Of a stretch of 64,000 bases of DNA, positions 10,608-60,400 are shown one piece after another. The notes beneath the pieces were generated by a model, which saw only the letters and a program-made list of their open reading frames with translations, was not told the origin of the DNA and did not search any database. The number at the start of each line of letters is the position of its first letter. Within the stretch, counting starts at the first letter, position 1. The position numbers were made by a program, and so were the translations under genes. This DNA comes from Balanoglossus misakiensis (Eukaryota > Animalia > Hemichordata): positions 4,110,093-4,174,092 of the forward strand of contig CM082587.2 of the NCBI GenBank assembly GCA_040954595.2, in the 5' to 3' direction.

Positions 10608-13600
10608 TTAATGATCCCCTCTTCCGTAACGCTTGGGGAGCGGGTCGACGAGCATGCTCTCCAGGTTTTCAAAGACGGTGTGCGGATCTTGGTCGGCGTT
10701 GATGTGCTGCGAGTCCTCGTAGAACTCGGCGATCTCCTCGGCGTACGCCTGGTACGTGGCCAGCTGCTTCTTGACTTCGGGCTCCGAGTCCTTGGCATGC
10801 AACTCGCAGCGGTCTTTGATTTCCTGCGTCCTCGGAGGATTGTACAATTCATGGTAGCGCTCCCCGGTAATGGGGTCGGTCGTCCGGAGGGTCAGTCGTT
10901 CAATGACAGAGTCGTTAGGAACGTCGAGGAAAAACACCCTGCAAAACGACACCGTGGAGAGACGCTTTAGAAAAGCAAAAAAAAAAGTATCGGCAATACG
11001 CGCGGTTTGCGCCGGTGACAAGATGACAAAGTGCCACTCCCGCAGGATGGCACAGCGAGACATTTCGACTAGCTCGGGTGTCACGTCGACCCTGCAAAAT
11101 CAACAACTCGTAAATCTCATTGAAAAAAACTTTTGTATCCCGCCATGAATCATGTACATTACATCAGCGTTCGTTTCGAAGCTTGAACTGAACTTTGATT
11201 GGTTCTTAACTTTGGGGTCAGCAGGCCAAAAGCTAAAGTCAACATCTCTTCTGTTGTGCGCAGATCTGAACTGCGGTTCTTCAATTTAAATCATTTTTTT
11301 TTATTTCACACAATGATTTAGGAAAGTTTGGAAGCACGGGGTTATCTGATGTTATGATTACACATTATTTTACTGCTATCTTGATATTCATATATTCTTG
11401 AATTCTTTTTATGAGTTGCAAAAGAGATCAGTTCTGCTGATATCGGAATAAATTCATCATTTATTTCCCGACAGTCTTGAATACCTGCTATCTCAGTCAA
11501 ATCTTTTACTGTATCCCACATCAATTTCTCTCAAAATGCATGTAAAGAAAGAAAGGGTGTCTTGGGCAAACCTCTGACAAGAAGTTTGAAGAATTTCATC
11601 TCAATATCTAAGCCTTTCAATGCAAAACAAAGTCCAGTTAGAATAATATAATTAAAAAAAACAGGGCGGGGCTGGTCTTCTACGAAGCATACATCTAGGA
11701 TTCTCCATGTCTGCCACAAAGATGTTCCACGGAGAAAAGATAGCAATCATGGAATTGAGACACACACACACACAGACACACAGACTCCACCCACCTGTTT
11801 GGTTCAAATCCGGCACTCGTCAAATTCTCAGCTTGCTCTCTGGTTCTGGGGAATCCACGCAGGACCCAACCCCTGGAAACGCAGTCAATCTGACTCAGGC
11901 GATCTTTAAGTAGACTCATTATCAAATTATCAGGCACTGCGGAAAACAATGAACAAACGAAAAGAATTAAAGTCGAAAGCAGGGTTGATCAGGAAAGCAT
12001 GACTTGCACAGAAGCATATCCTGCCAACGATTATTCAACTGTTTTTTTCAAAAATGATCAAACTTTTATCTCCCAGTTATGAAACTGGTCCATGGCTGGA
12101 AAACATTGAAAGAGTTGACATCCAGGTAGAATTCACCACGGAGACACAACTTTTCAGGTAAAAGTAACAATCCTTCAAAACTTCCCATGTTTGAAGGTGT
12201 ACTATCCCAATTTTACAATCACCACAGAACTACAGAGGGCACTGTGTCTTCACGACATATAAATCACACTTGCAGGAGTACACACTGCAGAATGTAGACA
12301 TCTCAATGTTTCAACCACTGGTGGCGCCCTGACACAACACATTGCAACACTGTCTAACAGTGGGAATAACATATGCAACAGACACATACCCTAGACACAG
12401 ACAGAAAGCAAGAATCAGTGATATAAAAAAAAACATACTCATCATGTCCCGTTCAACATAAGGTTTGATAGCCTCTCCGATCTTGGATTCATTAACAATA
12501 GCTTCCTTGACGAGCTGACCGGTAGATACTGAAGATGAAAACAAAACACACACAAATGTTCACTACACACAATGTATGGACACTCCTATCCTTCAGAAAG
12601 TTAACTTTTCACATGATGTGTGTGGGCCTGGTATTCATGTATCTCCCGAACAGGCCCTTACCAAGGAGATTCAGCTGTACTCCCTTTTTAATAACAAGAA
12701 TCGGGGAGGTTAGCGAGATAATACCAGGTGTAATGAATTCGCTCTGAGTACTCACCGCTGACAATGTGGTATTTACTAGCGAGCAATGCAGCCTGTGTTT
12801 TCTTGCCGCTTCCAGTCGGTCCCAGTAACACAATGCGGGGTGAGTGTGGGGCTGCTGTCCTGGCTTGAGAATTCAGGAATGTCCAGGCTGTACAAGTTGC
12901 AACGAGAAAAAATAATCAGTAAGCTCTAATAATGGTTGTGGCGTTCTCAATGTCATGTAGGCCAAACCACATCAAAATGGGGGTCAACAGCTACATACCT
13001 TGTGAGAAGACATCCGATTTGGGTTGATCTGCGTTGATCTTCTTGCTGACTTTCTCGTAACAGCTGAGGATGCCGTCGATGTGCCGATGGTAGACGACTA
13101 GGCGACTCACCATTGCCTCCTCGCTGTTGTTGTCGGGTTCCACCAGGCGGTGGGCGATGTCAGGGCTGGTTGGCCAGTCAAATGTGGTGTGGTATACGCC
13201 TAATGATGTGAAAATCATACATGTCAAGATTAGGTAATGTATGGAGAATACCTGACTTTGAAGTACATGCTTAGTTGACGAGCAATGAAACTCAATGTAA
13301 CACTCCTGTTATCCATTCACAACTCAACAGTTGTAGGAGATGCAATGTTATGTTTTCTGCGTGTTTGGGATTTGCAACTTACTTCCTGTCTGTGGGTCCA
13401 CTCTCTTTCCCATCTGTCGTTCAATGAGAACAGTGTCTGGTGAATCGAGCAAAACTGTAACACAAGCAATGACAACACCTTGTTGAGAACATGAGTGACA
13501 AGAATGATTCGTGGCTGCCAGTCCAGAAAATGTCTCCCTCATGAGAAAAAAAGTCACATTAGATGTTGGAAACACCACAACGAGCATTTGTTAACATTTC

Positions 13601-18011: not shown

Positions 18012-19980
18012 ATGGATCTTCGACTCCTTGTTGCATTGTCCGTGGCGATCCTTCTGCCGTTCGTTGCAGCGGTCCCAGGTAAGGTTACGTTGAAACGGTC
18101 GTTCGTATGTGAAAAAAACGCACGCGGACGCTATCAGGTACAGGTCTGACGCTCTCCCCATTGGACCAGATGGCAGACATCGTACTTTGCTCAAATGATG
18201 TGCTAGTAAATAGACTGTAGCTATGCCCCAAGTTGACCCAACGGGTTAAAATGTCTGGTGATGTCCCACTCTTGAAGGTATTTCAACTTCGGGAAGAATA
18301 CACACAATTTCATCGCAAGGCAATGGTCCCTGGTACCCTGCTAAGGATATTACCGAAACGGCCAGACTATTCTTTGCGCTGGCTATCTATTAAACTAGTA
18401 TGATATAAACTTGCTGACCTATGGTGACCCTATATGTTTGAGTTAGTTTCGCACACTCGTTTCACGCAGCCGTGGACTTCGGACCAGGGTACTGACCGCG
18501 ATTGGCCTCCGGGCACATGTATGATCCTGTGACACAAAAGCCAACGGTGGAAGTGTTTAAGATTCTCTTCCATATTATATTTGTCTATTTATTCCCGTCC
18601 TAGATCTAAAGGCAGAGTACTACACCATAACATCCGATGAAGCCCCGGCATACTTTCCCGGGGAGGAAACGACCATCCAACTGGCGCTGACGGTGACGAA
18701 CACCGGCACCGACGGTCTGCACTCCGGAGACGGATCCCCCAAATTCTACGCATGCGCTTACTTCACCGACAGCGTCGAGGAGGAGAGCGCGCACGAGATG
18801 TCCCGGCACTTCAACTTGACCATTCCGGACAACCAGGCCGGGCAGGCATTCCCCGTTTCGCAGAAGGTCAACTTGACCGGGTTGACGGTCACGGTCGGGG
18901 TGGACAAGGAGCACTGCTTCCATTACAGTCACCTCTGCGTCCAAATCATGCCGACGTATTCGCAAGACGATCCCGTGGAAAACAACGATTTCTGTCTGTC
19001 TCTGGGAAATGTGCCACCCGGTAGCGCTGGTCACCTGCATTGCACAGGTAACGAAATGTGTTAGAGGGTAACACTGAAAAGCACGACTTTTGCGCTTTTT
19101 TCGACCAAAAAACGTATAACGTTTGCCCCAAACTCTTGTGAAATATTCATTTTCGAATTTTGCTCCTATTGTTTTTCCACTTTTGTCTTTCAAGTTTCTC
19201 TAAGTAATTTTTACCGAGGTTTCATTTACTTATTTCGGCCCAAAACTATAAGCTTGTGTCTTCAATATTGACGGTGAATAATTAAATTCTACTCCACAGA
19301 TTTGGTAATTAAGGACCTGAAGATGCACCATGCGGAGCATACGAAATTCCAAGCTGGGCAGCCTACCGACATCTCCTTCTCCATAAACGTGCAAAATGTC
19401 GGCGCGTTGGATTTGCCCGCTTCCGAACAGCCCCATTTTGGTTTCGAGCTCTTCTTCGAGGGAGCGGAGGCCATGCAGAGCCTGGGAAGCCCCACCGCGA
19501 ACCGATCGCTGACCACTTCGGCAATGAACGGCAAGGACAACCCGACGTCGGCCAGCAACGTAGTCCACCTCTCCGACGTTCAGCACACGGTGACCATGGA
19601 CGTGGACGACTGCAAGAACTTCGAGGAGTTCTGCGTGCGGTTGGTGCCCAGTCTGGAGGCTAAAAGTTACGAAGACCCGGACGACAACATCTGCGTCTCG
19701 TTCACAGAGACAGGCGCCGGTACCAAAGACTGTAAGTATGCAAACAGTCTGCTCGTCTTGTCCTGAGTATAGTTTATTGGAATCCTGGGACATTTACTGC
19801 CCAATTTTACTTCAAAAGATTTTCCACTTATGTTTGTTTTATCTTTCAACAGGCTCGATCGACACAGTAGTGACGAAGAAGGACCCACAAACAAATACTG
19901 ACACAGAGAGTGGTGGCGCTGTCATGGCGATATCTACAGTGGCTTTTGTTCTCTCCACCATCATGTCAGTCTTATTTTAG
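18012..19980 (+). CDS. Uncharacterised GPI-anchored surface protein with two CARDB/Ig-like Cys-containing domains
   Basis: Exons 18012-18078 (signal peptide MDLRLLVALSVAILLPFVAAVP), 18604-19047, 19300-19731, 19853-19980; all introns phase 1, GT-AG. Each domain starts DL, has V-x-N-x-G, and ends C..CV...D....N..C. C-terminus ESGG-AVMAISTVAFVLSTIMSVLF* is GPI-signal-like. AATAAA at ~20496. Confidence 0.85.
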
Positions 19981-23476: not shown

Positions 23477-26400
23477 ATGCCTCGACGACACAGGGGAGCC
23501 ACTGCCTCAAAACGTGACCACACCAAGAGCAGGATCGAACAATATCCATATGTTTGCAGGCGGGATGAGCGCGATAAGTTCCAACACGAATTTGATGATC
23601 CTGTAAGGGGTTACCAAATAGCCTTAGTGGTTGGCCTTCCCAGAACTGGGAAGGACAGGTTCGCAATTGAGATCGGCCGCAGTCTTGTTCAGAAACACGA
23701 GAAAAATCCCGAAGAAGATGACTTTCTCCATGCGTATTCGATCAACATGCGACCCAGACAGGGCGAACAGCGCAGCCTTCAAGAAACCATCGCAGAAGAA
23801 CTTAAAGATACTCTAGGCGTGACTGGTGACCTGGAATCATTTTTCAAAGGTTCTAACGATACTCATCTCTTCATTTTGAATAATTGTGAGCATTTTGCAA
23901 AACGACGCCGCATGCAGTCACAATTCATAGACGCACTTATTGATCTGACAGACGAGCACGACAATGTTATGTTTATAGTGACGTCGAGGACAAGATTCAA
24001 GATCGGAAAAGTTCTGGTACTCGAACACGAAATGAGGTCTCTATCACACGAAGATAAAACGTCCCTTCTTGCAAGCATTGCTGGTCATGTAGATCATCTC
24101 GACGACATCATAAGACTGTCTTATCCTCTGCCAGAGTACCTGATACAAGTTGCCAGGTATTTGAAAGAAGATGACTACACCCCGGGTGAAATGGTCGACC
24201 TCCTGGAACGATCAGCGCTTAGCGTCGGCTGTGATGAAAGTTACTCAGATAGGGAACGAATGAACTGCCAGCTGAAAGGAGCCGTGGGGGTCTTGAACGA
24301 ACCACTATCAGAGTTTTTCAGCTCGCTGATTTCTACCTATGATGGTGAGAATGTTTCGCCAGATGTCATTGCAGAGAAGATGGGGATAACCACGGGTGAA
24401 GTGAAGCAGGACTTCCTGATGAAGCTGAGGAGGCAGGGCGTGATGAGCAAAGGTCGGCACGCGTTTTCGCACGCAGATGGTATTCGTGAGCTCGTGAAAG
24501 GCTTGGTTGGAGATACGAAGTTCATGGAGCCTGAAATGAAGAATGACCCGACAACGCACTGGATACTGGGCAGCATTCATAAGGTTTTGTCATCAGCGAT
24601 GGAAGAACCCGAAACTGAGCTGATCAAACACAGCGATGCAGTCAAACGTCTTAATGATACGTTACGGTACGCCACAAGAGCAAGTACAACGGAAGACAAG
24701 CTGAAATCCTACGGGGAAGCCATCACCTGTGCCTCAGAACTACTCAAGCGATGTGTAGGCAACACGGATGAGTGTCAAGAATTCAGTCCGTTAGCGTTGA
24801 AATATGTAGAGCAGAGTCTGAGCAGAGTCAAAGGTGACGAGAAGGCTGGGGTATCTAGGTCCGCACCTTACAAGACACCCGTTCAGGTGGACGACTGCAG
24901 AAGAGAAGAGGACACTAATGCTGGTCCCACATTGGATGCTGCACAGCGTGTCAGAACGCCGCATGCTACTGATAGCAGCAATTTACGTCAAGCGTACTCT
25001 TTCTCGCCACGTGGAGATGGTGTTCCCAGTACATCCAGCGTTGCCAAGGGTCTCCAGTTGCAAACCACGCCATCAACATTACCATCTGGAGATAACGACT
25101 CGGAGGTGCAGGTTTACTACCAAGGAACTAGTGAACAATTACAGTCAGCGCAAACGCAAGCCTGCCATGGGAGCTTGGCGGGAGGTGCCAGTCCAGAACA
25201 CCGCGACAGGGGCGGTCGAATGGGGGCACACCCATCTTATGGTAATGGAGACAACTTCAATGGCATGAATATAGGACTTTTGTCACTGTCAGATTTCTCT
25301 GCAAAACCACTAAGTATGAGCGAAAACAGTCACCAGTCAATCGATCCGAATTCGCGCAATTCTCTGTCATCTTCTGATTACAGTAATGAAGGCGCACCAG
25401 GATTCACCAACTCCATGGAGAGCAGTCACGGAAGACTCTTGCAAAGGGGCGGGGATTTTGTTGAAAAGTCGACAGTTTCTCAGACAGCATTGGTCCAGAA
25501 CAGCACAGTGGGCAATCGTACTACTTTGAAAGAACGTGAGACGTGTTCAGGTTCGCTCGATTCACCAGGTGGCCCCGCTGCCATTTTGAATCACGAGATC
25601 CCGTTGACCAATCAACGACAGTCGCCTCGATCCCCGGGGAGTCAATATGTGGCAAGCCATGGAAGTTATGCCAGAAACGAACTTCCGAAAGCAATGGGCA
25701 CGTCCAATGAGCTTTACAGAAATGACAACGACCAATCCAAGAAGAGTCAAGTACCCTTTGCAAATCCGCAGTATGAGAATCACAACACGCAAGCGCATCT
25801 GCAAAGACATCAACAACAATTCGCAGGTAAACGTTTTGAGTCCTTTTGCTATGGGGTCCACTTTTTGTCAATTAATGTTGAAACAAACACTATTTTGTCT
25901 GACTGATGGCATTTGAATCAATGTGTATATGTCTCTACTGACTTTCTTCAGGCACAAGGCCATATTTTCCACCGGAAGGCTTACAGTATACACCATCGTT
26001 TCGCGCACCAAACGTCCATGAATGCAGTAACGCACAATATATGCAACAATACTCGCATTCTGGGCCGGGAGGTCAACAAGCTGGACCACGGGGTTTCCCA
26101 CATGGAACACAGTCTTATATGCCCAATTGGCCAGATCAACGACCACTGGGTAAGTTCGTCAGATTTACTTCAGATGGCACTTATTCTCACAAGTGTCAGA
26201 TATGCTGGGACACTTTGGAGAAATACTAGTTGTTGCCATAGACTTCCTTTAGATTGAGACCGGTGTCTATTTTCTTCTTCTTCAGATGGGACCAGAAACT
26301 ATTGCGATGTACCTATGTATCTACTAGTTAACGACGTTTCCAGGTTACATGTGGAGGATTCCCGTAATTGCCCAACCTTAAACAGGCATATCGTTCCCAA

Positions 26401-31600: not shown

Positions 31601-32186
31601 ATGATGCTAAGTTTGGAATTCCCTGCATGAGTGTCGCCCAGCGGCGGCGACGAAAACAGCGCCTATACAATGAACACAGCAGCCTGGTGTTCTGGCCAAT
31701 TGTTTGAACTCAGTACATCTGTTAACTGCCGTGCGTTCTCACATCCAGAAATAGCTGGTGTGGAATTCTCTCGCCGGTGTGCCAACCGATCAATTATCGA
31801 GCATTAACTTCCATTATAAAAGAAAGGGGAAAAAATCCGTGATTCAGATAAAAGACAAGGCTAATTTACAAGGCTAATTTTTATTGTCTTAGACTCATGG
31901 ATGCGTGAGCGAATGCAGTTGCGCACATGGGCAGTAAGAGAACAGGCCAATTATACCGGGCGATGACATTCATTAGTGTTTTTGACAAAACCTTTTGCTA
32001 ACCTTTCTGCACAATCTGTCACCTGATAATAATTGCCTGTTTATATGTAAATATGTATGTGCCTGATTTATCACTTGTCTGCGGGTTTTTCACCTTTTAA
32101 ACACATGTTAATCGTTAGCAAAAATTGTAAATGACACAATAAGGTGATATGATAGAATATGATATATACTAGTGTATATGATCTAA

Positions 32187-32223
32187 CTATCTATCTATCA
32201 ATCTATCTATCTATCTATCTATC
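32187..32223. repeat. Short (TATC)n microsatellite
   Basis: ctatctatctatcaatctatctatctatctatctatc read directly. Confidence 0.85.
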
Positions 32224-32840
32224 GATCTGTCTGTCCATATTGCTTTCTTATACACAGGTAGATGCGCATCTACCAACGTGCGCATTCAGCCCTTCCACCT
32301 TGCACTGTGCTATACAATACCATCATAAACATAGCGGCGACACCTGTGGAACAATGGAACCGTCCGATGCTTATGTAGCAAGATCAGTTTCTGATTTCCA
32401 GCGCAGTGCATTTCTGATCACTGTCTGTAGAAGGTGCAACAGGGAAGGTCTGACTACTTTCGATAGGTACTGTGTATTGAACGTGTCAGGTAAAGTCTGG
32501 TCTTTTTTACTTTCTTTGTCGACAACACACCCAAAAGTGACCTGAGATGATGCCTAGCGATCACAAAATATCACTGAAATACCATAATATGAAATTTGAA
32601 GCTTTGACACAAATGACTTTTTGTACTCTCGTGTTATTTGTCATGTGCAATCCAGACGACGGGACTGCTTGTTTCAGAACCTGGACGGAGTTCGACCAAA
32701 GTGAAAAAGATATTATCGCACAGAGTTCTTTGGAAAGGATATTACGTTGTCCCGAAAACGACGGAAGCGATTATGTTGGTTGGCCCAATATTAGACTGGA
32801 TCATAACTGGTATTTTTTTTTCTTTGATTGCAAGGCAAAC

Positions 32841-35474
32841 ATGGCTTCCACCAGGGTGCTGCTCGTCTTTGTTTTAATATGTGGGATATGTATCGAGGGA
32901 ATGTCGGGTAAGGCTTGGCAATATGCGACATATATTCACAGTGACAGATCGTAGTAGACTTCTGGTCAGTTATGGCATCAGCGTAATTGCGCTTGCAAAT
33001 ACAAAACTTGGTGACGAAGTTTGTGACAAAGGTTCCGATCAGGTGGCATGCAAGTAACCAAAGAAAAAAAAGTTCCCCCTCCCCCGACCCTCTATTTTAA
33101 CTGAACGAACAGATCTGTGGTTCGTTGGTGTGCGTGTACGCGCGTTATTCCTTCCGACCGCTGCTGTAAACCAAACTCATTTCCCAGTGCCATGTATCAT
33201 TGTCACGTGATCATGCAACGGCTGTCAAAGAGTGAACCAAGCTGAATCTACAGCAGGGGTGCTGTGTGAGACAGCAGAGCATTTGAACAAATTATCGAAA
33301 AGGGGTTTGTTCATTTTTACAGCACTTCAGTTTTTTGACAAAGGTCAAATCAATCGAAGGACGCCGAGAAAACTTTACGCGAGAATGACGACTTCGGCTA
33401 AAAAACTAAATGCAACCCGTTCCAATTATACCTTCGGTCGTTCATTCATTCATTCTTTCGTGGTTTTCAGGTTTGACTTGCAGAATTTGTAAGTCACAAA
33501 GCTCACGGCGTTCTACTGGCGCCGACAATGCTGAAGAGATTAGAGTTCGCAGCATTGGAAAACATCATAAAGAATCGGATGGTGGGGACAGCCAGAGCGG
33601 GTCTCTGACAACGACTTCGCCTTCAGAAGAGTCCAGTGACGCCAGTGAATCTGTTTCTGAAGATGCTGGAAGTTCCCAGAGCGAATCCAACTCGACTTCG
33701 CAAGAATCTGAAGCCGAGTCAGACAACCGTCGACAGGAATCATCGGCTTCATCCGTTGATGATGATAACGATGAGTCCGTTTCTGAAGATGCTGGAAGTT
33801 CTGAGAGCGGAACCAATTCCACCTCGCAAGAAGATGTAGGAAGTTCTGAGAACGGATCCAACTCGACATCGCAAGAATCTGAAGCCGAGTCAGACTACCG
33901 TCGACAGGAATCATCGAGTTCATCAGATGCTGATGATAATGATGGGACCGTTTCTGAAGACGGAAGTTCGGAGAGTGGAACAAATTCTTCAGAGAGTACA
34001 TCATCTTCTACTGAGGAGTCAATTGTTGGTGATTTTGTCCGAAGGCAAGATCCAGATGCAAATGTGACCGTTAACGGTACTTCACCAGTTGGTAATTTCA
34101 CCGATGTCGGTAATGCCACTTCGGCGGACGGCAATTCCTCGATCATCGACCCTGGCGGAGACTACTCGAATTTGACCGATAGTATAAGCGTGCCAGCCCC
34201 GGGCGGTGGTGGCTGCATGCTGTTACCACAGCCCGGTTCCCCGGCGTCCAACGCAACTGACGACGTCGTGGATGGCGGGAACTCAACCGGAGACGTCAAC
34301 ACCACGACACCGGACTTCGACTTCGGCGGAAACTCAACCGGAGACGTCAACACCACGGCGCCGGACTTCGACTTCGGCGGAAACTCAACCGCAGACGTCA
34401 ACACCACGGCGCCGGACTTGGACTTCGGCGGAAACTCAACCGCAGACGTCAACACCACGGCGCCGGACTTCGAGGGAAACTCCACCGCCGGGGGCTCTAA
34501 CTCTTCTGCGACCAACTCTACCTCAGACACCGGCGATTCTGGTGTGTCAACAAACACGTCCGAGCCTGACCCCGCTATCTATCCGACACCGGCGGGTATA
34601 TTCGTCTACGAGATCTATCGACGCGATGATGAAGATGACGAAGACGATGACGGTGACGATGACGGTGAGGAAGACTGCGAAGACGATGTGATTATTGCTG
34701 AAGGAGTGAGTATTCACGTAACATTATCGCGTAGGTTACAGGATTCCTTAACGATGCGGCTCTAAATCAATACAATTCTCATTAACATTAGTTATGATTA
34801 CGTGTATGTTAAAGTTTCAATTGAACTTTTGATCGAAGAAACAATTTCTCAGAAACCTTTGGATAAGTCTATCTGATCAAATAGAAACTCGGTGTTTTGA
34901 CACATATTTTCTTACAGGAACAATGTTTCGCGATGATAACCAAACAAGGTGACGGTATTGTGGAAACTTATGGTTCTCAAGGTTCAGAGGTATGTGTGTT
35001 TTTTTTACGAAACGTTGTTGTTGTTGGTGGTGGTGGTGATGATGATTGTTAATGCGTACATAACAAAGTGTATGAGCTTTCATTCACCGAAAAGATAAGC
35101 AAAAGTACTGGTTTTAACTGTCAGGTTCTCAAACACTAATCAGAAGCCTACACACGTCCACCTCTGTTCGTGTATACAGGCATGTAGCACCAACGAAGGT
35201 CTCAATGACATCGTGACGTGCGGTGACCCAACGTTGATGGCAGAAGGTCAGACCTGTACACTGTGCTGTGACGATGAGGATAACTGTAACAGGAGTAAGT
35301 ACCGTTTGCCTTCTAGTTTGGTTCTAAATGTTTGATAATGACCAGGGACTGTGGTTCAATTTCGGTTGCTCAGAGAAACTATAGCGCATCCATAAAAATA
35401 ATTCCCTCGACGTCTATTATCTCATTTTATCCAAATGTTTTATGTGTTTTCTTTTTTTCTTGACAGACTACTAA
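32841..35474 (+). CDS. Secreted three-finger (Ly6/uPAR/quiver-like) protein with a ~390-aa acidic Ser/Asp/Glu/Asn/Thr-rich insert (498 aa as spliced)
   Basis: Exons 32841-32907 (signal MASTRVLLVFVLICGICIEGMSG), 33471-34705 (LTCRIC...EEDCEDDVIIAEG), 34918-34989 (EQCFAMITK...), 35180-35294 (ACSTNE...TCG...QTCTLCCDDEDNCNR), 35467-35474 (NY*). 1497 nt, in frame. LxCxxC start and CCxxxxxCN end are LU-domain hallmarks. AATAAA at ~35808. Confidence 0.85.
34274..34488 (+). repeat. Coding 51-bp minisatellite, ~4 copies of GGNST(G/A)DVNTT(T/A)PD(F/L)DF
   Basis: Read directly in DNA and translation. Each 17-aa unit has two N-glycosylation sequons. Confidence 0.93.
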
Positions 35475-37296: not shown

Positions 37297-40200
37297 TTAC
37301 GCATCAGCCTCATTTGTCAAGTTGACCATGAGACCTTCCTTGGGTTGTTCCATCTGGCCAACTTCCTGCATATCCTCGTACGTGTGATTGTCGTATGGCG
37401 AGGAAGGCGGTGTGTTCATGTAGCGGACAGTGTCATTGTCCGGCTGCAGGTCTACTGCGTCGGGTGGGACTACTTTCTCGGGCAGCGGTGAGGCGCCGCC
37501 ACCACCCTCCGCGAGATTCAACATTGAAGGGTCAACGGCAGAGTACAGCGGAGGAGCGCATGCGTTGTTGTCATAGTCTGGACTGGTGATCGTTGCATAC
37601 ATAGGATTGGGAATTCCCACGATACCTCCATCGGGACTCTGTTCTGGTGTAGCCAGATTTCCCACTATGTTGTGTATGTCCTGGTGCTGTCGTTCAGTGT
37701 GATGCTTCCTACGTCTGCAAGAGAGCGAGACTTTTTTTATTCAACTGCCAGTTTTTACATAAACTTAATACCACAAGCTTACATGCAGTTACTGGGCACA
37801 CGATTGTACACAAGCACATTTCAAAATGTCTTGTCAAGTGTAAACGAAAACTCTATAGTTTGTAAAATCTTACCTCCAGAGAAAGAAGAACAGTAGCACA
37901 ACGATTGCTACGAAAACAATAACAGCCAGGGCGACTGCAAGTGCCATGATGGTTGGCTTGTCTTTATTGGAAGACTTGTCTCCGTCTGTTCTTTTGCCAG
38001 GAGTGTCTGGTGTTGGCATCTTCGTGCTAGGCTCCCCTGTACAGAGAAAATAAGAAAAATCTCTACCAAACACCGAGGTTACTCTGAAGTTAGTGGGGAT
38101 GTTTGCAGGAATTCTTGGAGGCCAATTTGCATGTTATGAGCGAACTACATGCACAGCTGCGAGCTTTGGCAAGCATTTGTCTGTTACTCACTCATACAGA
38201 GTTCCCGATTGCCAGTGTCCCATTGGCCAGAAACAGAACACGTGATGGCGTCTGCTGTGATTGGCATGTAACCAGGGTCGCACATAAAACGGCATCGTTG
38301 ACCACTTCTGTTATCACACGTGTTCTCCATTCTGCCATTGGGTATTGTCAGTGGACATCTGCTAACACCTGAAAAGAAACCACATCAATAAGAATATCGG
38401 CATCACATTAAGTTTTTACATGAACCCAATTATATATCTGTTACTCACTTAATATACAGAATCCCTGACCGCCAGTTTCCCATTGGCCAGAATCAGAACA
38501 CGTGATGGCGTCTGTTGTGATTGGCATGTAACCAGCGTCGCACATTAAATGACATCGTTGGCCAATTCTGTTATCGCACGTGTCCTCCACTCTACCATGT
38601 GGTATTGTCAGTGGGCATGTGCCAGGAGGATCTGAAAAGAAACCACGTCAATAAACCAGATTCTGTGCTCACAAAGTATACCAGGGTGGTTGTGCTATAC
38701 CATGGTCGTTGGTGAGAAAAGTTGATGAGAATGATCTTGCAGGCAATGTGAGTTGCTAATTTAAAATAATGGACGGTATGGTATGGTATAATTTGCATTT
38801 ATGACTCACTTGTACAGAGTTCCTGTCCGTCATCGTCCCATTCACCAGACTCGGTGCACAAGATGGCGTCTGTCCGGACTGGCACATAACCGGCGTCACA
38901 CGTAAAATGGCATCGTTTGCCGTTCCTGTTATCGCACGTGTCCTGCATTCTACCGTGTGGTATTGTCATCGGGCATCTATAAACTACGACAGAAATCATA
39001 ACAGTGACGTCAGAGTAAGCTGGGCGTAGAGCTTGTTGTAAATATGGTGTGTTAGTCACCCTAGCGAAAACACTCAGTCAAAATCATAGCATATTAAGTA
39101 TTAGGCGTTTCAATTGCGTGGAAAGTGGAGAATTTTAGTTTATTTGTATTTACCTGTCGTACAAACACTGTGGCTTGGCCGAGAGCATAGACATTCCGCT
39201 CCGTGGTCAGTATTGATGCAAAGTTGGTCGCATCCTCCACTGTAGATATCACATGGATTAGGTTCTGGGATTGTAAAAAGAACAGGTTTTAGTTACCAGA
39301 CTGAAAAATTGGTGATACCTCAGTATTTTTGTACAGTGTACAAATTGAGAAAAAAAGTTGGCACACAGAACAAAACTACCGGAAATAAAGGCTAGTGTCC
39401 CTTTAAAGTTGACTCGCTTACCTCCAGTAACGGGTTGAAGACTTTGGTGATAAAATTTCAGCGCTGTCGGCTCCTCTGCGAGTGTTATAACCCTGGCGGA
39501 ATTTTCCTCCGGAATGCTGAAGATCTGTATTTGTTTTCCTATTCTCTCACCGACAAACAAAAAATCCTGGTGTAACAAAATTTAAAACACGCCCGTTTAT
39601 ATCGTTCATTTTTGTGAATGTTAATAAATCACCTAAGTGGAGAGGAAGAGATTTTTTTCACTTTGAACGAATATTGAAGGAATACTTCACCTGAAATATG
39701 GTTATTCCGACAAACTGCGAGTAGAGTGCATATTGAACGAAAACTTCCCTGTCGCCTCCATTAAAGTCAACAGACTCTATGGTGTGCTTGTAGTCGTCTG
39801 TCCAGTACAGCCTACATGAAAGGAAAATGAAGGGGGTTTAGAATGAGTCCCGCTCTATTTTATATGCACCCGTGAATAGTTTTTTTTTTTTTTTTTTTGG
39901 GGGGGGGGTTAATATATATTATCAAAATGGTCTGGTGGTATTTAAACATTTGATTGCACTTAGGCTGCATTCACAAACACCTCTGGAGGGGGGGGCGGGA
40001 GAATTGAGGGGGGGATTTGAAAAAATTGAGGGTATGTAAGGGGGGGGATTTGAAATAATTTAGGGACTGAAAGGGGGGGACTTGAAAACTTTAACGACTA
40101 AATATTTATTTTGAGTCCACAAAAATGCAGTTTCGCGCCCTTTATTTTACAAAATTTTCTAATGTGGGAGGGGGACACCCCCTCCCACACCCACCCCCTC

Positions 40201-43200
40201 CATTTATCAACACCTTTCAATCATTGACTGGTTTATCTAGTGTCCCAGGTCAAGGGACTTGCCCCACCCCATGATAACTTTGAGCGGCGACGGTTAAATT
40301 TGTCCTCCCCAACATACCGGTAGTTGAGTTAATTTGCTTTTGCCGGGTTCATTAAAATGCAGCTTTGAGCTCTGTATTTTAGAAAATTTTCTTACGTGGG
40401 AGGGGGACACCCCCTCCCAAACCCACCCCCTTCAATTCTCGCTTTACAATGTCTCCCAACACAGAATACAAATATATGTACTTAAAAAATAAAAACAATG
40501 TTCAGTTTTAATACCCACTGATGAGGGGAAACATCAGTTTCAATTTCTTTTCATGGTAGCACTGTTTTTCTTTTTACAAGATAGATAGGTGATGTGTTTT
40601 GCTCTGTGAAAGAAAATGGGGGGGGGGGATTTCAAAATTTTGGCAGTTCGGAAGGGGGGGATTTCAAAATATTGGCAGTTCGGAAGGGGGGCATGTGAAA
40701 ATTAGCGGTAAAAAAAATTGAATTCTCCCGCCCCCCCCTCCAGAGGTGTTTGTGAATGCAGCCTTACCTATCGGTGTTGAAATCAATGGCAAGATTGTTG
40801 GGTTTCTGAACATCGGTAGATACTATCAGTTTGCGCTGGCGTCCGTTGAGACCAGATCGCTCGATGCGCGGGAAAGAGTCATCTATGTCACTCCAAAACA
40901 GATATCTGTGGTGTGAATGAGATTGAAAGCTGGTAAGTACACGTGTGCATGTATTTGGGTAGGCAGGTAGGTTTAGTGGCTTAAAGTGTCACGGGGGTGC
41001 CCCTACAGGTAAAACTAGCGTTATAGTTGTGGTACAGACGTTGAGCATTAACGTTATCAGGAATGGTGTCCGTATTCTCGCTGCAACATTATTATGAGCC
41101 ACGAAACTCAAACAAGACAAGACAAAACAAACACTTTTACAGAAACAAATACCGAGACCTTCCGCGTCTAAGAAGCAACGTACCTCTTCACAGGATGAAC
41201 AACAATGCCATAAAGCGTGCCAGTATTTTCATATACGAGTCTTGTGACGTCAACACCGTCTAGTCTACATATCATGATACTTCCTTCCGTCTGGTCTGTC
41301 CAGTAAATATTCGACGCGATCCAGTCGACAGCAATACCTGTAGAGGATAAACCAGTTTAGTCAAATAGAGTATGACGTCATGACCAGGAAGGCGCATGAC
41401 TTGTACATGCGGTGGATCAGACCAGCTCTCCCTTTGTACAACTCTACCTTTTGCATCGGTGCCGTCCACGATATTTGTCCACCGTTGTTGGTCCAGCAGA
41501 CGAACACGCCAGATGCTGTTGATTCGGTAGGCATTTGCGTGCCCATAGATGTAGTTAGCGAAGATGTCGAAGTCAATGGCGTTCACGGTTAACTCAGTGA
41601 AGCAGCTAACGTTGAAAACTTCGGGCAGATCTTGGTGGGCGATGTTGGCGGGCATCTTGCAAAGGTGATCTCCCTTAGCTGAGAAGATCAGCTCATGTTC
41701 GTGTATTATTGATTCATCTGTAAATGAAATTAGAAGACAGATTAGCAACAAAGGACAACCAGTCAACGTACAATATCGCCATTTATCTTTTTTTTCTCGC
41801 TTCCGACTAGTTTTTACAACTATCACCCTCATCTGCGCCTCGATCAAATGCCTGTTGAATACAGGTCTACATACCTATTTCACAAGTTTTGCCATCGTCC
41901 AGTAATCTGTATCCATGGTCACACATGCATAATCCTCCGACGGGTTGACTCACGCATATTTGGCCACAGTTTTTATCATCACAGGAGTCTGCATATAAAC
42001 AAATGCAGCATATTATGACTTGGGTATCAAGAATCAACCAACCTCTATTCGTGTCATATAATATTTGCACGTCATGATAAGAAAACAGCCATACACATAA
42101 GTAATTTTAGAGTCTAATTCTTTACTATCAATCACGTGATCTGGCAATGTGTCCCATGGCGCAGTCATTTCCAGATGACGGGCAAGCAATATTTCGGCAT
42201 CCAGTAAAAGTTTTCCCGAGTATGTTTTTACTTTAGAACCGCCAAACACGCAACATGTATCGGGTATGTTGCCTCATCAGCCTCATTGCATTTCGTCTGC
42301 ACAGTCTTTGTCTGCACCACGTAAGTCCACGTTGCTGAAGTTGCCCGTCATCTGGAAATTTGAATGCGAACGCAACTGCCACCTGAGCGCGTCTGACGTC
42401 ATTTGATAGCGAAGAATTGAGCGAGTCGGTGGTATACTCACCGTCCTGGGCCGGCTGCCGACTTGCATCGTAGAAAATAACTCCATTTGGTTCGTAAAGA
42501 TGGGGTACAAAGATTGGCTCCGCGTCTGAGTCAAACGGCACGAGAAGGAGATTTTCTCCTAGGATGTCACTTACGAAGAAACCAAAAGTCTGATTGGAAG
42601 ACAAAAGCAAATCCGATTATTACATGTAGTTATTACATCACATTTAAAAGCCAGATTGTTATTGGCGCAATCAATCTCATGGGCCTCACAATGCACAGAA
42701 AACTAAAGAGCAATTATTGTCCAAACAGCGAATGCAATATGCTTGACTATATGCAAATTAACACATTGTGTGCAAGTAAAGTGACAGTTCATGGGATGCA
42801 ATGATTTCTTCCTCGTAGAGGCAAAATGTAACTTACAGGATCGACATCCAAGCTATACAATTCAAGGTTGTCTCGTACAGTGTCTTCAAAGTCGACAACA
42901 ACAACTGGCGTAGGGTTTTCGTCATTAAGACTGACTGAAAGAATCCTGTTGTTTGCATTGTCCGACCAGTAAAGCCTGTAAAGAAACGCAGAAGTCATAC
43001 TTCACGTCACATGGCAAGGTGAAAAGTACGTCGCATATGGTTAAAACATGGTTTTTTTCGCTAGTAGCTGTATTCAAAACCAGCGCGTGTCACGTGTGAG
43101 AACCCAGCAAGTTTGTTGGACCAATGATCATGATGATGTAGAAGAACAATACGGTCAGGTGATTCAGCCAAAAGCTCGACTTACATCTTGGACGCGTAGT

Positions 43201-45861
43201 CGATCGTCAGGGCAGCAGGACTGCCGATGACATCATCACCGACCACACTCCCGTTCACCAAAACTATTCTGTTACTGCCATCCAGGTTTGACCGTTCAAT
43301 CTTGTTGGTCTCGCCCCAATCGCTCCAGTATAGGTACCTGTGTGAAAAACAAAACAATGTAAAATTCGAAAGGGAAAAAAAACAAAGACGTTGTTCTAAA
43401 TTCAATGTAGGTGGCGCCCTAACTCGTATCGTATCGTATTTATTGTATTGTGTAGTGTTGTGTTCGAGTGTTGTGTTACTGTACTGTGCTGAACTGTGCT
43501 GTGTTTTACGTTTTTAGTTGGATATATGAGAACACTTGCCCATTCTCCGGGTCACAAACAATTCCAGCCGGTACATCTAACCCGGTCGTCACCAAAGTAC
43601 GATAGAATGAACCCTGGTAGTTTGCTATCTTGATCCAATTGTACGCCGCGTCCGTCCAGTAGATATTATTGGCTACCCAATCGACCGCCACACCCATGAC
43701 GTAAGTGGACGTCCCGACGAAGACCGATCTGTGAGCCCCGCTGCTCAGGTCGTACACGTCTATGGAGTGGTGGCCGGGGTCGCTCCAGAAGATCAACGAA
43801 TCGTCGTAGTCGAATGCCAGCGCCGTCTTTTCCGAGTCGCTCAGGAGGTCGCTTTTCAATTCGGTGTAATCGAACTCGCCGCCGCTTTGCAGACGATCGT
43901 ACATGTTTTGTCCGGTCCCTGGGTAGTAGACGATGCGGGATTCGATGTACTCCTCGTGGTCAACCACAAACAGAAACGGGGTGCCCGTGAAATTGCCTTC
44001 GTCCTCCTCGGCAGCGATACCTACAAGCGGACGTTAAATGTTAGAAGGCGATGCAGATTGCACAAAATGGAACCAAAGTAACCATAACCACAGACAAAGT
44101 TTTTTTCTATTTTCTCTTTTTGGCCACGATCAATATTCTTCTCATTTGTATTAAAATACTGAACTATTCTTATTCTTATTCTATATTCGCGTATATTCTT
44201 TTCCTTTTGCCTGTGTTTTGAATATCAAAGGGGTTTATGTCAAGGACACGATCCAGGAAATACCGAATGATGTCTGTTAATTATATCACTTACATTGACG
44301 CATTGAAAAAAAATACTGGTTAAATTGGTGGGTTTTTTTTTGGGGGGGGGGGGGGGGAGCTCAGCTACTTTACTACACGCGATTTATCGAATTCTCTGGC
44401 GGCCAACACGAAAGTCTGCGACATGTGAAACAACACGACGTGCAACCGTCGTGACTGGTCACAGGTGATTGCACGGGTGAACACCGGGTGCGATCGTGAC
44501 TGTCCAACCAGGAAAGCCGGATTCTTCGCGTGTCGATCGCCTAGAGTGTTGCCTTTTGTTCGGTACAAACAATGGCCGCTTAGATGCCCAGTAACTTCGA
44601 GCTAAACACCCTTATAGCTGTAGCAATATACTTATATCCAGCCTTGAGGGCTTCCGAGACAACCTGTTGCAAAAATCTACATATCAGAATTAAAACAAAT
44701 CACTTGTTTCACTATGTGGGGATATGCAAGTATATTTCTCCTATCCTGTCCCTATCAACCGGTTAATACAGATCTGAACATTGCATGAGCCATCCCGGAA
44801 TCGAAAGTGGAAAAACACTAGATATACCCTCACATCATACGTAAAGCTATGGACACAAAAGCTCCCCTTTACTGCGCGTGAGAGCTACCATATTACGCAA
44901 TACATGCTAAACCTGTATAATATACTAGTATTTACGAGCTGAACCAAAGCGCGAAAAACAAAGGCGTGGCCGGATTATGTGACTATGGGATCCCCGTTAC
45001 ATTTAAAGTGGCTCGAAAACGCTGTTTTAAGCAGAGTGACCGTGTTTTAAGCATAAAGGCCAGATTTTCGAATAATTACTATAAGTAAAGTTCTTTCATT
45101 CATAGATGTCGACACAGTCCGCAAGCCTATACTCAGTAGCTAAATTATTCATTCGCAAAAAAGGACAATATTCCGGACGACCATGGTTCTACCACCAAAA
45201 AGGACCCTGGGCATGACGGTGTCAGTGTGTGGAGCGAGGGTGTGTTGACTTTAACAACTGTTTTTTTCTCACTCAACTGACCGTGAACAATTTTTTTCCA
45301 GCAATACTAGTGCAGTCGTACACTGAAGGTCAATAATTGGGAATGGCGCGCCCTTACTCAATGTTAGCCGTGCCTGGGTCAATTCGGCCTATACCAGTCG
45401 ACACAATATCGTTAATCTACATTGTGTACTATGTGCATAACGTTTCTGAGCAATGCTATACAGATTAGTGAAAAAGACAAATCGGGGCCTGAGTTTTCAC
45501 CATGACAAATTTACCTTTTGGGGAAAAAGCCCCCCTCCCTCCATTGTAGCTTACACAATGTGGTAGCTACCTATCTTTCGTAACCCATCATGTGTATTCC
45601 CAGACAACAGGTCGTCTGAGGGTGGGGTAGGGTGGTCGGCCGCGATTTAGGGTAGTGATGACACGAGAAGAATGTAACGTAGAGAAAGGAAAAGTTTCTT
45701 GCGATTTTTTCAGCGTCTGGGCCTCAGGTATACGAGTATACATAGTTACCAGTACGCTTACACAACATATCAAACATACCTGATAGATACATGCACAAGA
45801 CTATAGGTAAAACAGACAGCCACCCGTAGAATTGCCCTCTGCTTTTTCGCTGCGCACTCAT
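37297..45861 (-). CDS. LRP-like single-pass receptor: signal peptide, 2x(YWTD beta-propeller + EGF), 3 Sushi/CCP, TM, Tyr-motif cytoplasmic tail; ~17 coding exons
   Basis: Exon 1 45861-45780 ([28 protein letters not shown]); exon 2 44020-43540 (IFWSD, IYWTD); 43337-43185 (LYWSD); 42975-42837; 42589-42442; EGF 41988-41875; second propeller 41717 to ~39421; EGF ~39274-39154; three Sushi exons ~38990-38193; TM exon ~38036-37874; last exon to TAA 37299-37297 with NPMY. Confidence 0.88.
39963..40763. mobile_element. MITE with ~43-bp TIRs and TTA target-site duplication (PIF/Harbinger, Tourist-like)
   Basis: TTA|GGCTGCATTCACAAACACCTCTGGAG(n)CGGGAGAATT ... AATTCTCCCGC(n)TCCAGAGGTGTTTGTGAATGCAGCC|TTA. 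Internal duplicated palindrome GGGAGGGGGACACCCCCTCCC at ~40166 and ~40398. Confidence 0.9.
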
Positions 45862-57421: not shown

Positions 57422-60400
57422 ATGGCTGACAATAAAACCACCCCGCAGAGCGAACCCCTCGTGAACGACCAGGTGAAAAACGAAGCCGGTGGCTATGTCT
57501 GGGAAGTGACAGACATGAAACGACTTCACAGGTTTCTGTGCCTGGGGTCTGAGGGGGGAACGTACTATGTGAAAGACAGCCTTGAACTTGGAGTACAGAA
57601 CGCCAGTTGCATAGACCGGCTCATCGAAGGCGGCGACGGAGAAAAAGTGGTGGAGGAGATTAAAAAGTACAGTGTTGGGGGCAGAACAGCCAAGCAGGAG
57701 CCCCTCATTCTGGCCTTGGCAATGTGTGCAAGGAGCGCAGATTTACAAACCAAGCAAGCGGCGTATCGAGTGTTGGCAGATGTGTGTCGCATCCCGACTT
57801 TCCTCTTCACCTTTGTCGAGGACGTGGAACGGATAGGGAAAGCCAAGAAAGGCACCGGCTGGGGACGGGCCCAGCGCCGAGCTATACAGCGGTGGTATAA
57901 CGATAAAGATGCTAAGGCCTTGGCGCTGGCAGTGACAAAATACAAACAGCGCAATGGATGGTCACACCGGGACCTGCTGAGGCTCGCGCACATCAAACCT
58001 GCAAATGACGGTAAGTATCCGATATAGTATAACTGTAGAGACAGACACTCACTGTTAGTTCAGTGACCCCATCAGAGCAATTGGACCACCATTCGTGGAT
58101 GCGACTAATTGAACACATCTGAGAATGTGACCATGGCAACCAATGTTAATCATGATGTCATACTGAAAATAACTGATTGAATGTTTTTTTCTGAGCTTAA
58201 TTAAGTTGATACACAGTTTTTCTTTGTCACTGGGGTGAAAAAAGCAATATTATAATTTCCAGGTAGTGGTACATGTTCTTTGGGATAACCCAGAGACCAG
58301 AGTAATGTCTATAAATAATCTGCCCCGGAGCCAACTGCTCCACTGGTGTCAATTTAGATGTTTGTACAGAGGATATCACTTCCAGTCAACATATTTGCAC
58401 ATGACACACGCCTGCATGTATCACTGGACAGCCAAGCCTCGAATCTGTGTTTTATTGGCAAAATTTCACATTCCTTTTCTGTAAGAGCAGCCAAGGTGTT
58501 TGGTTTCTCTTTCGTCATACTAAAAGATGATTTATCATCTGTCTGGGTGACTCGTGCCCTCCTTGACCCCCGTTGCTGTCTCTGAAGGCACATGATGTTA
58601 CGCAAAATGTTTCGGCCGGCCGTATATGCATTAGTGCCTGTTCCCTTTAATGTCTGTTATGCATGAAGAATTCGTGCCTTCCACTCATCCAACATTGGAG
58701 AAAAGAAATCAAAGCTACCAAATTTAGCCAGCCAAAAAACGCCGACAAGGATTCTAGGTCAGTGGTGCCCAGACAAGAAGCAGCTAGTTGAAATATTTGC
58801 TTTCCATCTTTTTAGGGCAAGTATTAGTGCTGACCCAGTTTTGTATATTGCAGCTCCGGTTCAGAGAGTGAATAACACGTGTGTCATCCTATCCTTTGAT
58901 ATGAACGTCTAATGTCTGTATCAAGACAGCATTATGAAATAACGGAATCTGACTCTGGCATACTTAGAATAGCCAGTCACAAATATTTAACAAGATCGGT
59001 GCTCTAGTTAATAAATCCTTTGGGGGTGTTTTTTTCATGATTTGTTCATTTTTATTTTTACATTGATATTGACTTCAACCTCCACAATGTCTAGACCATT
59101 GTCAGGCAATTAATATGTAGGTGTCTTGTTGGGTACTGAATGTGAAAAGTTTCTCTTACATGTATGTGCCCGTTTAGCAGGAGCCAGATGTCTGAAAACA
59201 CTATTGAAACTATTTTAGATACGTGTCCTGGCAAAGTGCTACTGCTAAACGCCAGATAAACACTTGGCGATGACAATAAAAGTCCAGCTTATCTTAGGCT
59301 TCCACTTGATATTTTATTGGGCAAAACGGGATTTGATAGCGCTTGGTGTTGATGGTCCGGGAAATGACTTTCAACTGGGCGCTGATGGATGCTCTGCGCT
59401 GGCAAGATATTTTACAGTGAGGCACTGTGTTGCTTTAAGTTGAATATAACGAGGCATGGTAATGATTGTCCGTACTTGTATATTGCACCTACAGATGACA
59501 CACACACACACATGCCAGGAAGGTTGAACATTCACGCGTCTTGTACGTAATTTATTGCTGCCAAATTTGGACGTGGATCCGTGACATTGATGCAAACGGC
59601 ACTGTTGGGTATTTCACAGATGCTGCCAGTGCCAGATGCACCCCATAGTTGGATATTAGACGGTGAATGTTCACTTGATCCACTTCCCGACAACCTCAAA
59701 ATGGGTCACTCTTGAAAGTACCCTAGATTCATGTCACCTTTGAGGTGTCTCACTGAAATCATACATCCAACTGATCATTTTCTTTCTGGTTTTCGCATCT
59801 CCAAACGTGATCTCGGTATGTTAACTATGTCCCAGCCAAGCATGCGGCCTGTAGGACTCCTGACATGCCAGGATTCCACATCAAATGTTATTACCGGGCA
59901 TTTAAATTGTCCGACGGGAATGTCGGTTTGATGGACTTAATGGATTGATATCCCTCGCATGTCTGTGACCTATGACCTTGAAGTAACCTTTGACCCTGGC
60001 AGAGTGCTCCTCTTACCTATTCTGCCATAATAAATAATTCTTTCGTGGTAATTTTTCTGGTCAGAGAGACATGCAGCATCCGTGGTATAATCACATGACA
60101 AGGCAGACATGTAATAGACTCACATTCCTTCAGGTAGACAGCCTTATGCTGTTACCCTCATGACCAGTCAATATTTGTGTACTGTTGCCCCGTAGCAGCT
60201 GCATATGAATTTATAGCAATCATTTCTGTGTTTTATTTGTGGCCTACAAGTGTTGCTAAATTCTAGCACCTGTGTAAAAGTTTTAATCACATCGTAGTAT
60301 GTAACCCGCTGTAAGTCGAACCATTTATAGGAATGAGGATATTAAAAATATCCTCTCCCAGTAATTCAAAATGCCAATAATATAAATATATATTCCCCTC

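What the first reader, a model, noticed from the sequence alone, without database searches (positions are those of the whole stretch)
32841..35474. Three-finger protein split by a ~390-aa acidic insert bounded by Arg-Arg sites: a possible proinsulin-like two-chain precursor
Seen: after the signal peptide comes LTCRIC (C1, C2), then ~390 aa of S/D/E/N/T-rich sequence with more than 20 N-x-S/T sequons, then the rest of an LU domain (EEDC, EQCF, AC..TC, QTCTLCC, NCN), with no TM or GPI signal. Known: LU domains pair C1-C5, C2-C3, C4-C6, C7-C8, C9-C10, so the insert sits inside the C2-C3 loop. Here C4 and C6 appear lost together (VIIAEG and YGSQ positions), as expected if the fold is still real. 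Seen: RR sites just after C2 (SSRR) and shortly before C3 (IYRR), plus three internal RR-Q sites (DNRRQES, DYRRQES, FVRRQD). Inference: convertase cleavage could excise the insert as pyroGlu-capped acidic glycopeptides and leave a disulfide-linked two-chain three-finger ligand or toxin. Alternatively it is an intact matrix, mucus or biomineral protein.
Basis: partly seen in the sequence, partly recalled or inferred. Interest (0 to 1): 0.8.

Follow-up and report, generated by a model that had tools for sequence, protein, structure and literature searches.

The report
Three-finger-like protein with giant cleavable loop
This animal gene encodes a predicted secreted protein whose cysteine pattern resembles a three-finger (Ly6) domain interrupted by a 395-residue acidic, sugar-site-rich stretch with five paired-arginine sites, so it is likely cut, insulin-style, into a small two-chain core plus acidic peptides, though neither the fold nor the cutting has been shown.

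Summary
Five GT-AG coding exons give a 498-residue protein: hydrophobic leader, L-x-C-x-x-C, a 395-residue acidic spacer, then eight more cysteines ending C-x2-CC-x5-CN. The spacer is under selection for two features. 24 of its 28 Asn lie in glycosylation sequons (0 of 5,000 shuffles). 10 of its 12 Arg stand in RR pairs (0 of 20,000 shuffles; 82 of 100,000 after collapsing repeats). Corrections: the three RR-Q sites likely descend from one duplicated unit; there is no furin motif; the spacer holds an odd extra cysteine (Cys271); the missing C4-C6 pair is a core LU disulfide; and the core is strongly acidic, so a classical neurotoxin is unlikely. No relative, Pfam match, RNA run or usable fold was obtained, and the spliced protein could not be folded, so LU membership rests on the cysteine pattern alone. 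Best reading (0.4): a degenerate three-finger protein cut at RR by PC1/PC2-type convertases into a disulfide-linked two-chain acidic core. Main rival (0.3): an intact acidic matrix or mucus glycoprotein. The scan's notes show no earlier finding of this on other DNA.

The parts
32384..32489 (+). Possible non-coding first exon (inferred; start at an initiator-like hexamer)
   Evidence: ATG-free stretch ending in a strong donor; a pyrimidine-rich acceptor lies 6 nt before the start codon. Not confirmed by RNA.
32841..32907 (+). Coding exon 1: hydrophobic leader, predicted signal peptide (residues 1-23)
   Evidence: Top hydropathy 15-mers 2.6-2.7 at residues 4-7; phase-1 donor. No dedicated signal-peptide predictor was available.
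33471..33511 (+). Start of exon 2: predicted short chain with C1 (Cys26), C2 (Cys29) and the first RR (35-36)
33512..34045 (+). Ser/Asp/Glu-rich spacer segments (74, 57, 47 aa), each ending in RR; includes the 171-nt duplication 33659-33987
34046..34624 (+). 193-aa segment with 19 sequons, the odd Cys271 (34214-34216), the 51-nt repeats (34274-34473) and the last RR (406-407)
34625..34705 (+). Asp/Glu tract (15 of 17 residues), predicted C3 (Cys425) and strand B, with Ile at the expected C4 position
   Evidence: LU numbering is inferred from spacing
34918..34989 (+). Exon 3: predicted C5 (Cys437) and finger-2 hairpin; Ser454 (TCT, one base from a Cys codon) at the expected C6 position
   Evidence: assignment inferred
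35180..35294 (+). Exon 4: Cys460, 472, 484, 487, 488, 494 and the terminal CN (predicted C7, an extra loop-3 pair, C8, C9, C10)
35467..35474 (+). Exon 5 coding part (two residues, stop); AATAAA at 35808
   Evidence: Strongest of 31 candidate acceptors (12 of 14 pyrimidines); poly(A) signal

Best explanation
The gene encodes a predicted secreted, likely three-finger-derived protein whose first loop holds a 395-residue acidic spacer, and convertases likely cut that spacer at its RR pairs, which would leave a short chain (residues 24-36) held by predicted disulfides Cys26-Cys437 and Cys29-Cys425 to a long acidic chain (408-498). Shown: the reading frame, cysteine pattern, sequon and RR excess, internal duplications and charge. 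Inferred: splicing, secretion, LU wiring, cleavage. One cut anywhere in the loop already gives two chains; cuts at the first and last RR would give a core of about 11 kDa and four acidic peptides, three starting with Gln that could cyclise to pyroglutamate. With no Arg at P4, PC1/3- or PC2-type enzymes of regulated secretion are more likely than furin (recalled knowledge). The core would keep a 17-residue Asp/Glu tract beside finger 1, and most likely binds a cationic protein or a calcium-rich surface, as the acidic tail of GPIHBP1 binds its enzyme partner, rather than acting as a cationic receptor toxin.
For: RR: 5 observed, maximum 4 in 20,000 shuffles; 4 after dropping one duplicate, 0 of 20,000; 3 after keeping one RR-Q and dropping three of the 17-aa repeats, 82 of 100,000. 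Of 16 residue types tested, Arg has the only doublet excess at that level (next: Gly, 190 of 20,000). No RR is an identical-codon doublet, which argues against slippage. RR sites flank both ends of the spacer (6 residues after C2; 17 before C3). The best three-segment split of composition cuts after residues 215 and 401, near RR ends 214 and 407 (post hoc). P1' residues are S, Q, Q, Q, D; the nearest sequon is 6-60 residues away. The layout (signal, two-Cys chain, dibasic, connecting peptide, dibasic, Cys-rich chain) parallels starfish relaxin precursors (PMC4772807 passages). Dibasic processing with pyroglutamate is known for colubrid three-finger precursors (PMC12390062 passages). An extra loop-3 disulfide has precedent in LYPD6 (PMC6600238).
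Against: No relative was found to test conservation, and there is no family or structure match for the exon pieces. C4-C6 is absent although it belongs to the tight core, and the review names only 2-3 and 7-8 losses. All five sites are RR, none KR, and there is no R-x-x-R in the spacer. Dibasic sites are not always cut (PMC7179676 passages). Nineteen sequons and a free cysteine on a single segment look like investment in a retained or polymerising chain, not a discarded linker. Internal introns differ from the archetypal LU gene. The best two-segment split falls at 206, not at an RR.
Confidence: 0.4

Rival explanations
1. The protein works intact as an acidic, heavily N-glycosylated matrix, mucus or mineral-binding protein. 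The three-finger core clasps the two ends of a giant loop, Cys271 cross-links chains, and the RR pairs serve slow turnover or anion binding.
For: 24 sequons under strong selection; an odd cysteine; tandem expansion of the spacer with loose constraint (10 non-synonymous and 5 synonymous changes in 44 codons between duplicates). Acorn worms make calcium carbonate ossicles (PMC9490348 abstract), if the host is one.
Against: It does not explain why 10 of 12 Arg are paired and bracket the spacer. S-x-E phosphorylation motifs are not enriched (9 against 6.7; 1,015 of 5,000 shuffles) and Ser-Gly motifs are depleted (4 against 8.7).
Confidence: 0.3
2. The spacer peptides are the main product (a granin-like multi-peptide precursor), and the cysteine-rich parts are a decayed LU remnant or a different fold that only serves folding or sorting.
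For: A core disulfide is lost; CC-x5-CN rather than x4; no LU match for any exon piece; RR excess. The granin comparison is recalled, not from a call.
Against: Ten cysteines still fit LU spacing, with both C4 and C6 positions vacant together and Ser454 one base from Cys. The released peptides have no amidation signal or conserved repeated motif beyond the duplicated unit.
Confidence: 0.2
3. The gene model is wrong in part: the downstream exons are not spliced to exon 2, an anchored last exon is used, or the locus is not expressed.
For: No transcript evidence could be obtained; 2 of 31 alternative last exons give a hydrophobic tail; an out-of-phase donor at 34665 scores higher than the modelled one in my crude score.
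Against: Four GT...CAG introns with matching phases give one open frame. The only strong acceptors between the start and the stop are three of the four modelled ones plus two in introns and the exon-5 site, none inside exon 2. Sequon and RR selection indicate a translated secretory protein.
Confidence: 0.1

Closest known systems
Secreted single-domain LU / three-finger proteins, LYPD6-type cysteine pattern (PMC6600238)
   Same: Leader exon with phase-1 intron, two residues before C1, C-x2-C start, CC...CN end, extra cysteine pair in loop 3
   Different: 395-residue spacer inside loop 1; C4-C6 missing; CC-x5-CN; two phase-0 introns inside the domain instead of one at the tip of loop 2; no sequence match detected
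GPIHBP1 and SP-10 (ACRV1), LU proteins with a disordered extension (PMC6600238 passages)
   Same: LU domain combined with a disordered segment, highly acidic in GPIHBP1 (21 of 26 residues)
   Different: Their extension lies in front of C1 on a separate exon; here it lies between C2 and C3 in the same exon and is far longer; GPIHBP1 is GPI-anchored
Colubrid three-finger toxin precursors (denmotoxin, irditoxin; PMC12390062 passages)
   Same: Three-finger precursor with basic processing sites and N-terminal Gln converted to pyroglutamate
   Different: Their propeptide is 7-15 residues and precedes C1, giving a single chain; here cleavage would split the domain itself, and the core is acidic
Proinsulin / relaxin precursors (PMC4772807 passages)
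   Same: Signal, two-cysteine chain, dibasic site, connecting peptide, dibasic site, cysteine-rich chain
   Different: No insulin cysteine motifs; connecting region about ten times longer, glycosylated, with three internal RR; analogy only
Plethodontid modulating factor (PMC4029566 passages)
   Same: Secreted, strongly acidic three-finger protein with non-canonical disulfide wiring
   Different: Small, single chain, all eight core cysteines kept

Membership tests
LU / Ly6-uPAR three-finger domain | Signal-peptide exon, then C1-x2-C2 near the mature N-terminus | tested here: met
   Hydrophobic leader, phase-1 intron, L-x-C-x-x-C; leader judged by hydropathy only
LU / Ly6-uPAR three-finger domain | Ten-cysteine pattern 1-5, 2-3, 4-6, 7-8, 9-10 (four conserved core bonds) | tested here: not met
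   C4 and C6 positions hold Ile and Ser; consensus from PMC6600238 section 2
LU / Ly6-uPAR three-finger domain | Terminal CC-x4-CN with Asn after the last cysteine | tested here: met
   CC-x5-CN, one residue longer than the quoted motif; 0.03 per shuffled window for C-x2-CC-x3-6-CN
LU / Ly6-uPAR three-finger domain | Contiguous domain of 60-90 residues | tested here: not met
   77 residues only if the 395-residue spacer is left out of the count
LU / Ly6-uPAR three-finger domain | Match to a clan CL0117 profile | tested here: inconclusive
   0 families at E<=10 for 4 of 4 pieces of this gene scanned one by one; the spliced domain was not scanned
LU / Ly6-uPAR three-finger domain | Three-finger fold | not testable with these tools
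   Only single exons could be folded: exon 4 pLDDT 53, no match; exon 2 pLDDT 46.5, no match at E<=0.001
LU / Ly6-uPAR three-finger domain | One internal intron at the tip of loop 2 | tested here: not met
   Two phase-0 introns, before predicted C5 and before predicted C7; the archetype is drawn mainly from vertebrate genes
Insulin / relaxin family | A-chain CCxxxC-x8-C and B-chain C-x11-C motifs | tested here: not met
   Cysteine spacings 2, 241, 153, 11, 22, 11, 11, 2, 0, 5 against the motifs
Convertase-processed precursor (works-like) | Paired basic sites beyond chance, bracketing the parts | tested here: met
Convertase-processed precursor (works-like) | Sites conserved in orthologues and cut in vivo | not testable with these tools
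   No orthologue found; no peptide data
Snake-type three-finger neurotoxin | Compact, usually cationic domain with all four core disulfides | tested here: not met
   2 basic against 16 acidic residues in 425-498; C4-C6 absent; most three-finger proteins are net positive

The most novel reading that the evidence does not exclude
A three-finger domain that matures like proinsulin: its first finger carries a 395-residue connecting region that is wholly excised, leaving a two-chain, disulfide-linked acidic three-finger ligand and releasing pyroglutamate-capped acidic glycopeptides. I found no such architecture in the papers I could search.
Probability: 0.28. Interest if true: 0.75.

Novelty: new variant of a known kind. 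Interest (0 to 1): 0.5.

Why it matters
Three-finger domains are described as compact single chains of 60-90 residues, and known add-ons sit outside the cysteine frame. A member with a giant cleavable loop would show that the scaffold can fold around, and be matured by removal of, a large pro-region, which is a new way to control a three-finger ligand. It would also mean that profile surveys needing a contiguous domain of 60 or more residues (PMC13719153) may undercount or misdescribe such split members. If uncut, it is still an unusual use of the fold as a clasp for an acidic glycoprotein loop.

Tried and rejected
No whole genome is held, so paralogues elsewhere were not searched; within the window there is no second CC-x3-6-CN motif. 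No RNA holder was listed, which is no evidence either way. Homologue searches were all blank: exon 2 (7,974 candidates, none at E<=0.001); exon 4 against longer proteins (1 candidate, none at E<=10); exon 4 against 1.84 billion representatives (0 at E<=0.001); end of exon 2 (215 candidates, none at E<=10); metagenome contigs (593 pattern matches, none confirmed). These used short or low-complexity queries, so they exclude only close relatives. The ESM Atlas gave no usable hit for exon 2 and one unnamed cluster at 0.80 for exon 4, a level a third of shuffled proteins reach. PDB sequence searches gave only chance rows. AlphaFold2 built a beta-solenoid (pLDDT 70-75) on the 17-residue repeats. I set it aside because AF2 is reported to give confident but unrealistic solenoids on near-perfect repeats (PMC11795689 abstract) and Foldseek found nothing at E<=0.001. 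A phosphoprotein (S-x-E) or proteoglycan (Ser-Gly) signature was tested and not found. A furin substrate was rejected: no R-x-x-R in the spacer. Insert-as-intron was rejected: one open frame, no strong internal acceptor. Paper searches and the passages of PMC4476152, PMC11595613 and PMC10421932 added nothing specific.

Full report
Observation. Coding exons at 32841-32907, 33471-34705, 34918-34989, 35180-35294 and 35467-35474 are separated by four GT...CAG introns of phases 1, 0, 0, 1 and give 498 residues. A probable non-coding first exon ends at 32489 and a poly(A) signal lies at 35808 (inferred). Splicing rests on signals alone. My crude donor score passed 2 of the 4 modelled donors and also an out-of-phase donor at 34665, and it found no strong acceptor inside exon 2. 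C1, C2, the spacer and the predicted C3 are in one open frame, and the other five frames of exon 2 have 6-39 stops, so the spacer is not an unrecognised intron. Of 31 candidate last exons, the modelled one has the strongest acceptor; two weaker ones beyond the first poly(A) signal would give a hydrophobic tail.

The spacer. It spans 395 residues between Cys29 and Cys425. 24 of its 28 Asn are in N-x-S/T sequons (shuffle mean 8.0; 0 of 5,000), which shows selection for glycosylation and so passage through the secretory pathway. It grew by duplication: a 171-nt unit at 86% identity and 3.9 copies of a 51-nt unit. Between the two long copies 29 of 44 codons are identical, 5 differ silently and 10 change the residue, so the bulk is loosely constrained. 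S-x-E motifs are not enriched and Ser-Gly is depleted.

The RR sites. Ten of twelve spacer Arg are in five RR pairs; 20,000 shuffles gave at most four. The units beginning QES are clearly duplicates, so the three RR-Q sites may have a single origin. The third is written with different codons at all three positions, but its alignment to the others is uncertain. Counting only one RR-Q and dropping three of the 17-residue repeats leaves 3 RR among 8 Arg in 240 residues, reached by 82 of 100,000 shuffles (19 of 20,000). Among 16 residue types only Arg shows such an excess; Gly is next at 190 of 20,000. No pair is a repeated codon. There is no KR and no R-x-x-R, so furin is not predicted, whereas PC1/3- or PC2-type enzymes accept RR (recalled; RR sites occur in insect neuropeptide precursors, and some dibasic sites there are left uncut, PMC7179676 passages). 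The best three-segment split of composition cuts after residues 215 and 401, close to the RR pairs ending at 214 and 407, but the best two-segment split is at 206, so this support is modest. Full cleavage would give pieces of 14, 74, 57, 47, 193 and 91 residues counted from residue 23.

The cysteine frame. Spacing fits C1, C2, C3, C5, C7, an extra loop-3 pair, C8, C9, C10-Asn (numbering inferred from the consensus in PMC6600238 section 2). The extra loop-3 pair has precedent in LYPD6. C4 and C6 positions are both vacant, and Ser454 is coded TCT, one base from Cys. The terminal motif is rare by chance (0.03 per shuffled window). Against membership: the review names losses of 2-3 (often) and 7-8 (rarely), and my search of it for '4-6' returned two occurrences, the consensus and what appears to be part of a reference identifier. 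The equivalent bond is part of the tight core network (PMC4029566 passages). The last motif has five, not four, residues between CC and CN, and the internal introns differ from the archetype. Pfam, PDB, Atlas and large protein searches on single exons were blank, and single-exon folds were uninformative. The spliced domain was neither scanned nor folded. I put LU-type wiring at about 0.75, and call it LU-like, not a proven member.

Host and context. Neighbours are ordinary genes: Ro60/TROVE, an LDL-receptor class B protein and an adenylate-kinase-like exon (6 of 12 frames... matched a family at E<=0.01 in 7 of 12 cases). Earlier unchecked notes on this genome call it an acorn worm and report relatives of other genes in Ptychodera and Glandiceps. 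I did not test the host. If they are right, the blank searches suggest a fast-evolving or lineage-restricted gene. Hemichordates average 55 three-finger genes per genome, and the survey lists only LU and receptor-kinase architectures for them (PMC13719153, parts 1-3 of 4 read). Its supplements, which list the sequences and may hold a relative, could not be read.

Mechanism. I favour processing (0.4): folding of the two ends into a three-finger core in the ER, glycosylation of the loop, then cutting at RR in secretory granules. The estimate is about 0.9 for the gene model, 0.75 for the wiring and 0.6 for at least one cut; full excision is about 0.28. The long chain would carry 31 acidic against 2 basic residues, including a 15-of-17 Asp/Glu tract beside finger 1. 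That resembles the acidic tail of GPIHBP1 and the acidic pheromone PMF more than cationic neurotoxins, so binding to a cationic protein or a calcium mineral is the more likely role (inference). The main rival is an intact acidic matrix or mucus glycoprotein cross-linked by Cys271 (0.3); acorn worms do mineralise (PMC9490348 abstract). A granin-like precursor with a decayed core (0.2) and a faulty gene model (0.1) follow.

Novelty. Searches and 65 of an open-access library turned up no three-finger protein with a large insert inside loop 1 or matured into two chains. The nearest cases have extensions in front of C1 (GPIHBP1, SP-10, colubrid precursors). Subscription papers were not covered. Papers seen: PMC13719153 (parts 1-3 of 4); PMC6600238 (outline, section 2, part of section 3, passages); passages of PMC12390062, PMC4029566, PMC4772807, PMC7179676, PMC11595613, PMC4476152, PMC10421932; abstracts of PMC11795689 and PMC9490348. 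Verdict: a real, odd gene; a new variant of the three-finger kind on the cysteine pattern; two-chain maturation plausible but untested; interest 0.5.

Noticed in passing
window 34274-34473: AlphaFold2 folds the 17-residue, two-sequon repeats into a beta-solenoid at pLDDT 70-75; probably the known AF2 repeat artefact, but a glycosylated solenoid is not excluded.
   Followed up: partly
window 23477-25903 (+): An 809-residue open frame with a P-loop-like motif near its start and no Pfam family at E<=0.01; the exact sequence is not in the protein collection.
   Followed up: partly
window 18561-19061 and 19278-19763 (+): Two adjacent frames of about 165 residues that look like extracellular beta-rich modules followed by a hydrophobic tail; only a weak malectin-like hit below the cut-off for the first.
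   Followed up: partly
window 57422-61534 (+): Ro60 (TROVE and vWA) exons.
   Followed up: yes
window 37300-44033 (-): Exon-like frames of a probable LDL-receptor class B membrane protein: a class B repeat at 43509-44033, a hydrophobic segment near 37873-38133 and a Tyr/Pro-rich frame at 37300-37740; that they form one gene is a guess.
   Followed up: partly
window 10611-11099 (-): Adenylate-kinase-like exon, below Pfam's cut-off.
   Followed up: partly
window 32181-32232: (ATCT)13 microsatellite just upstream of the predicted first exon.
   Followed up: no
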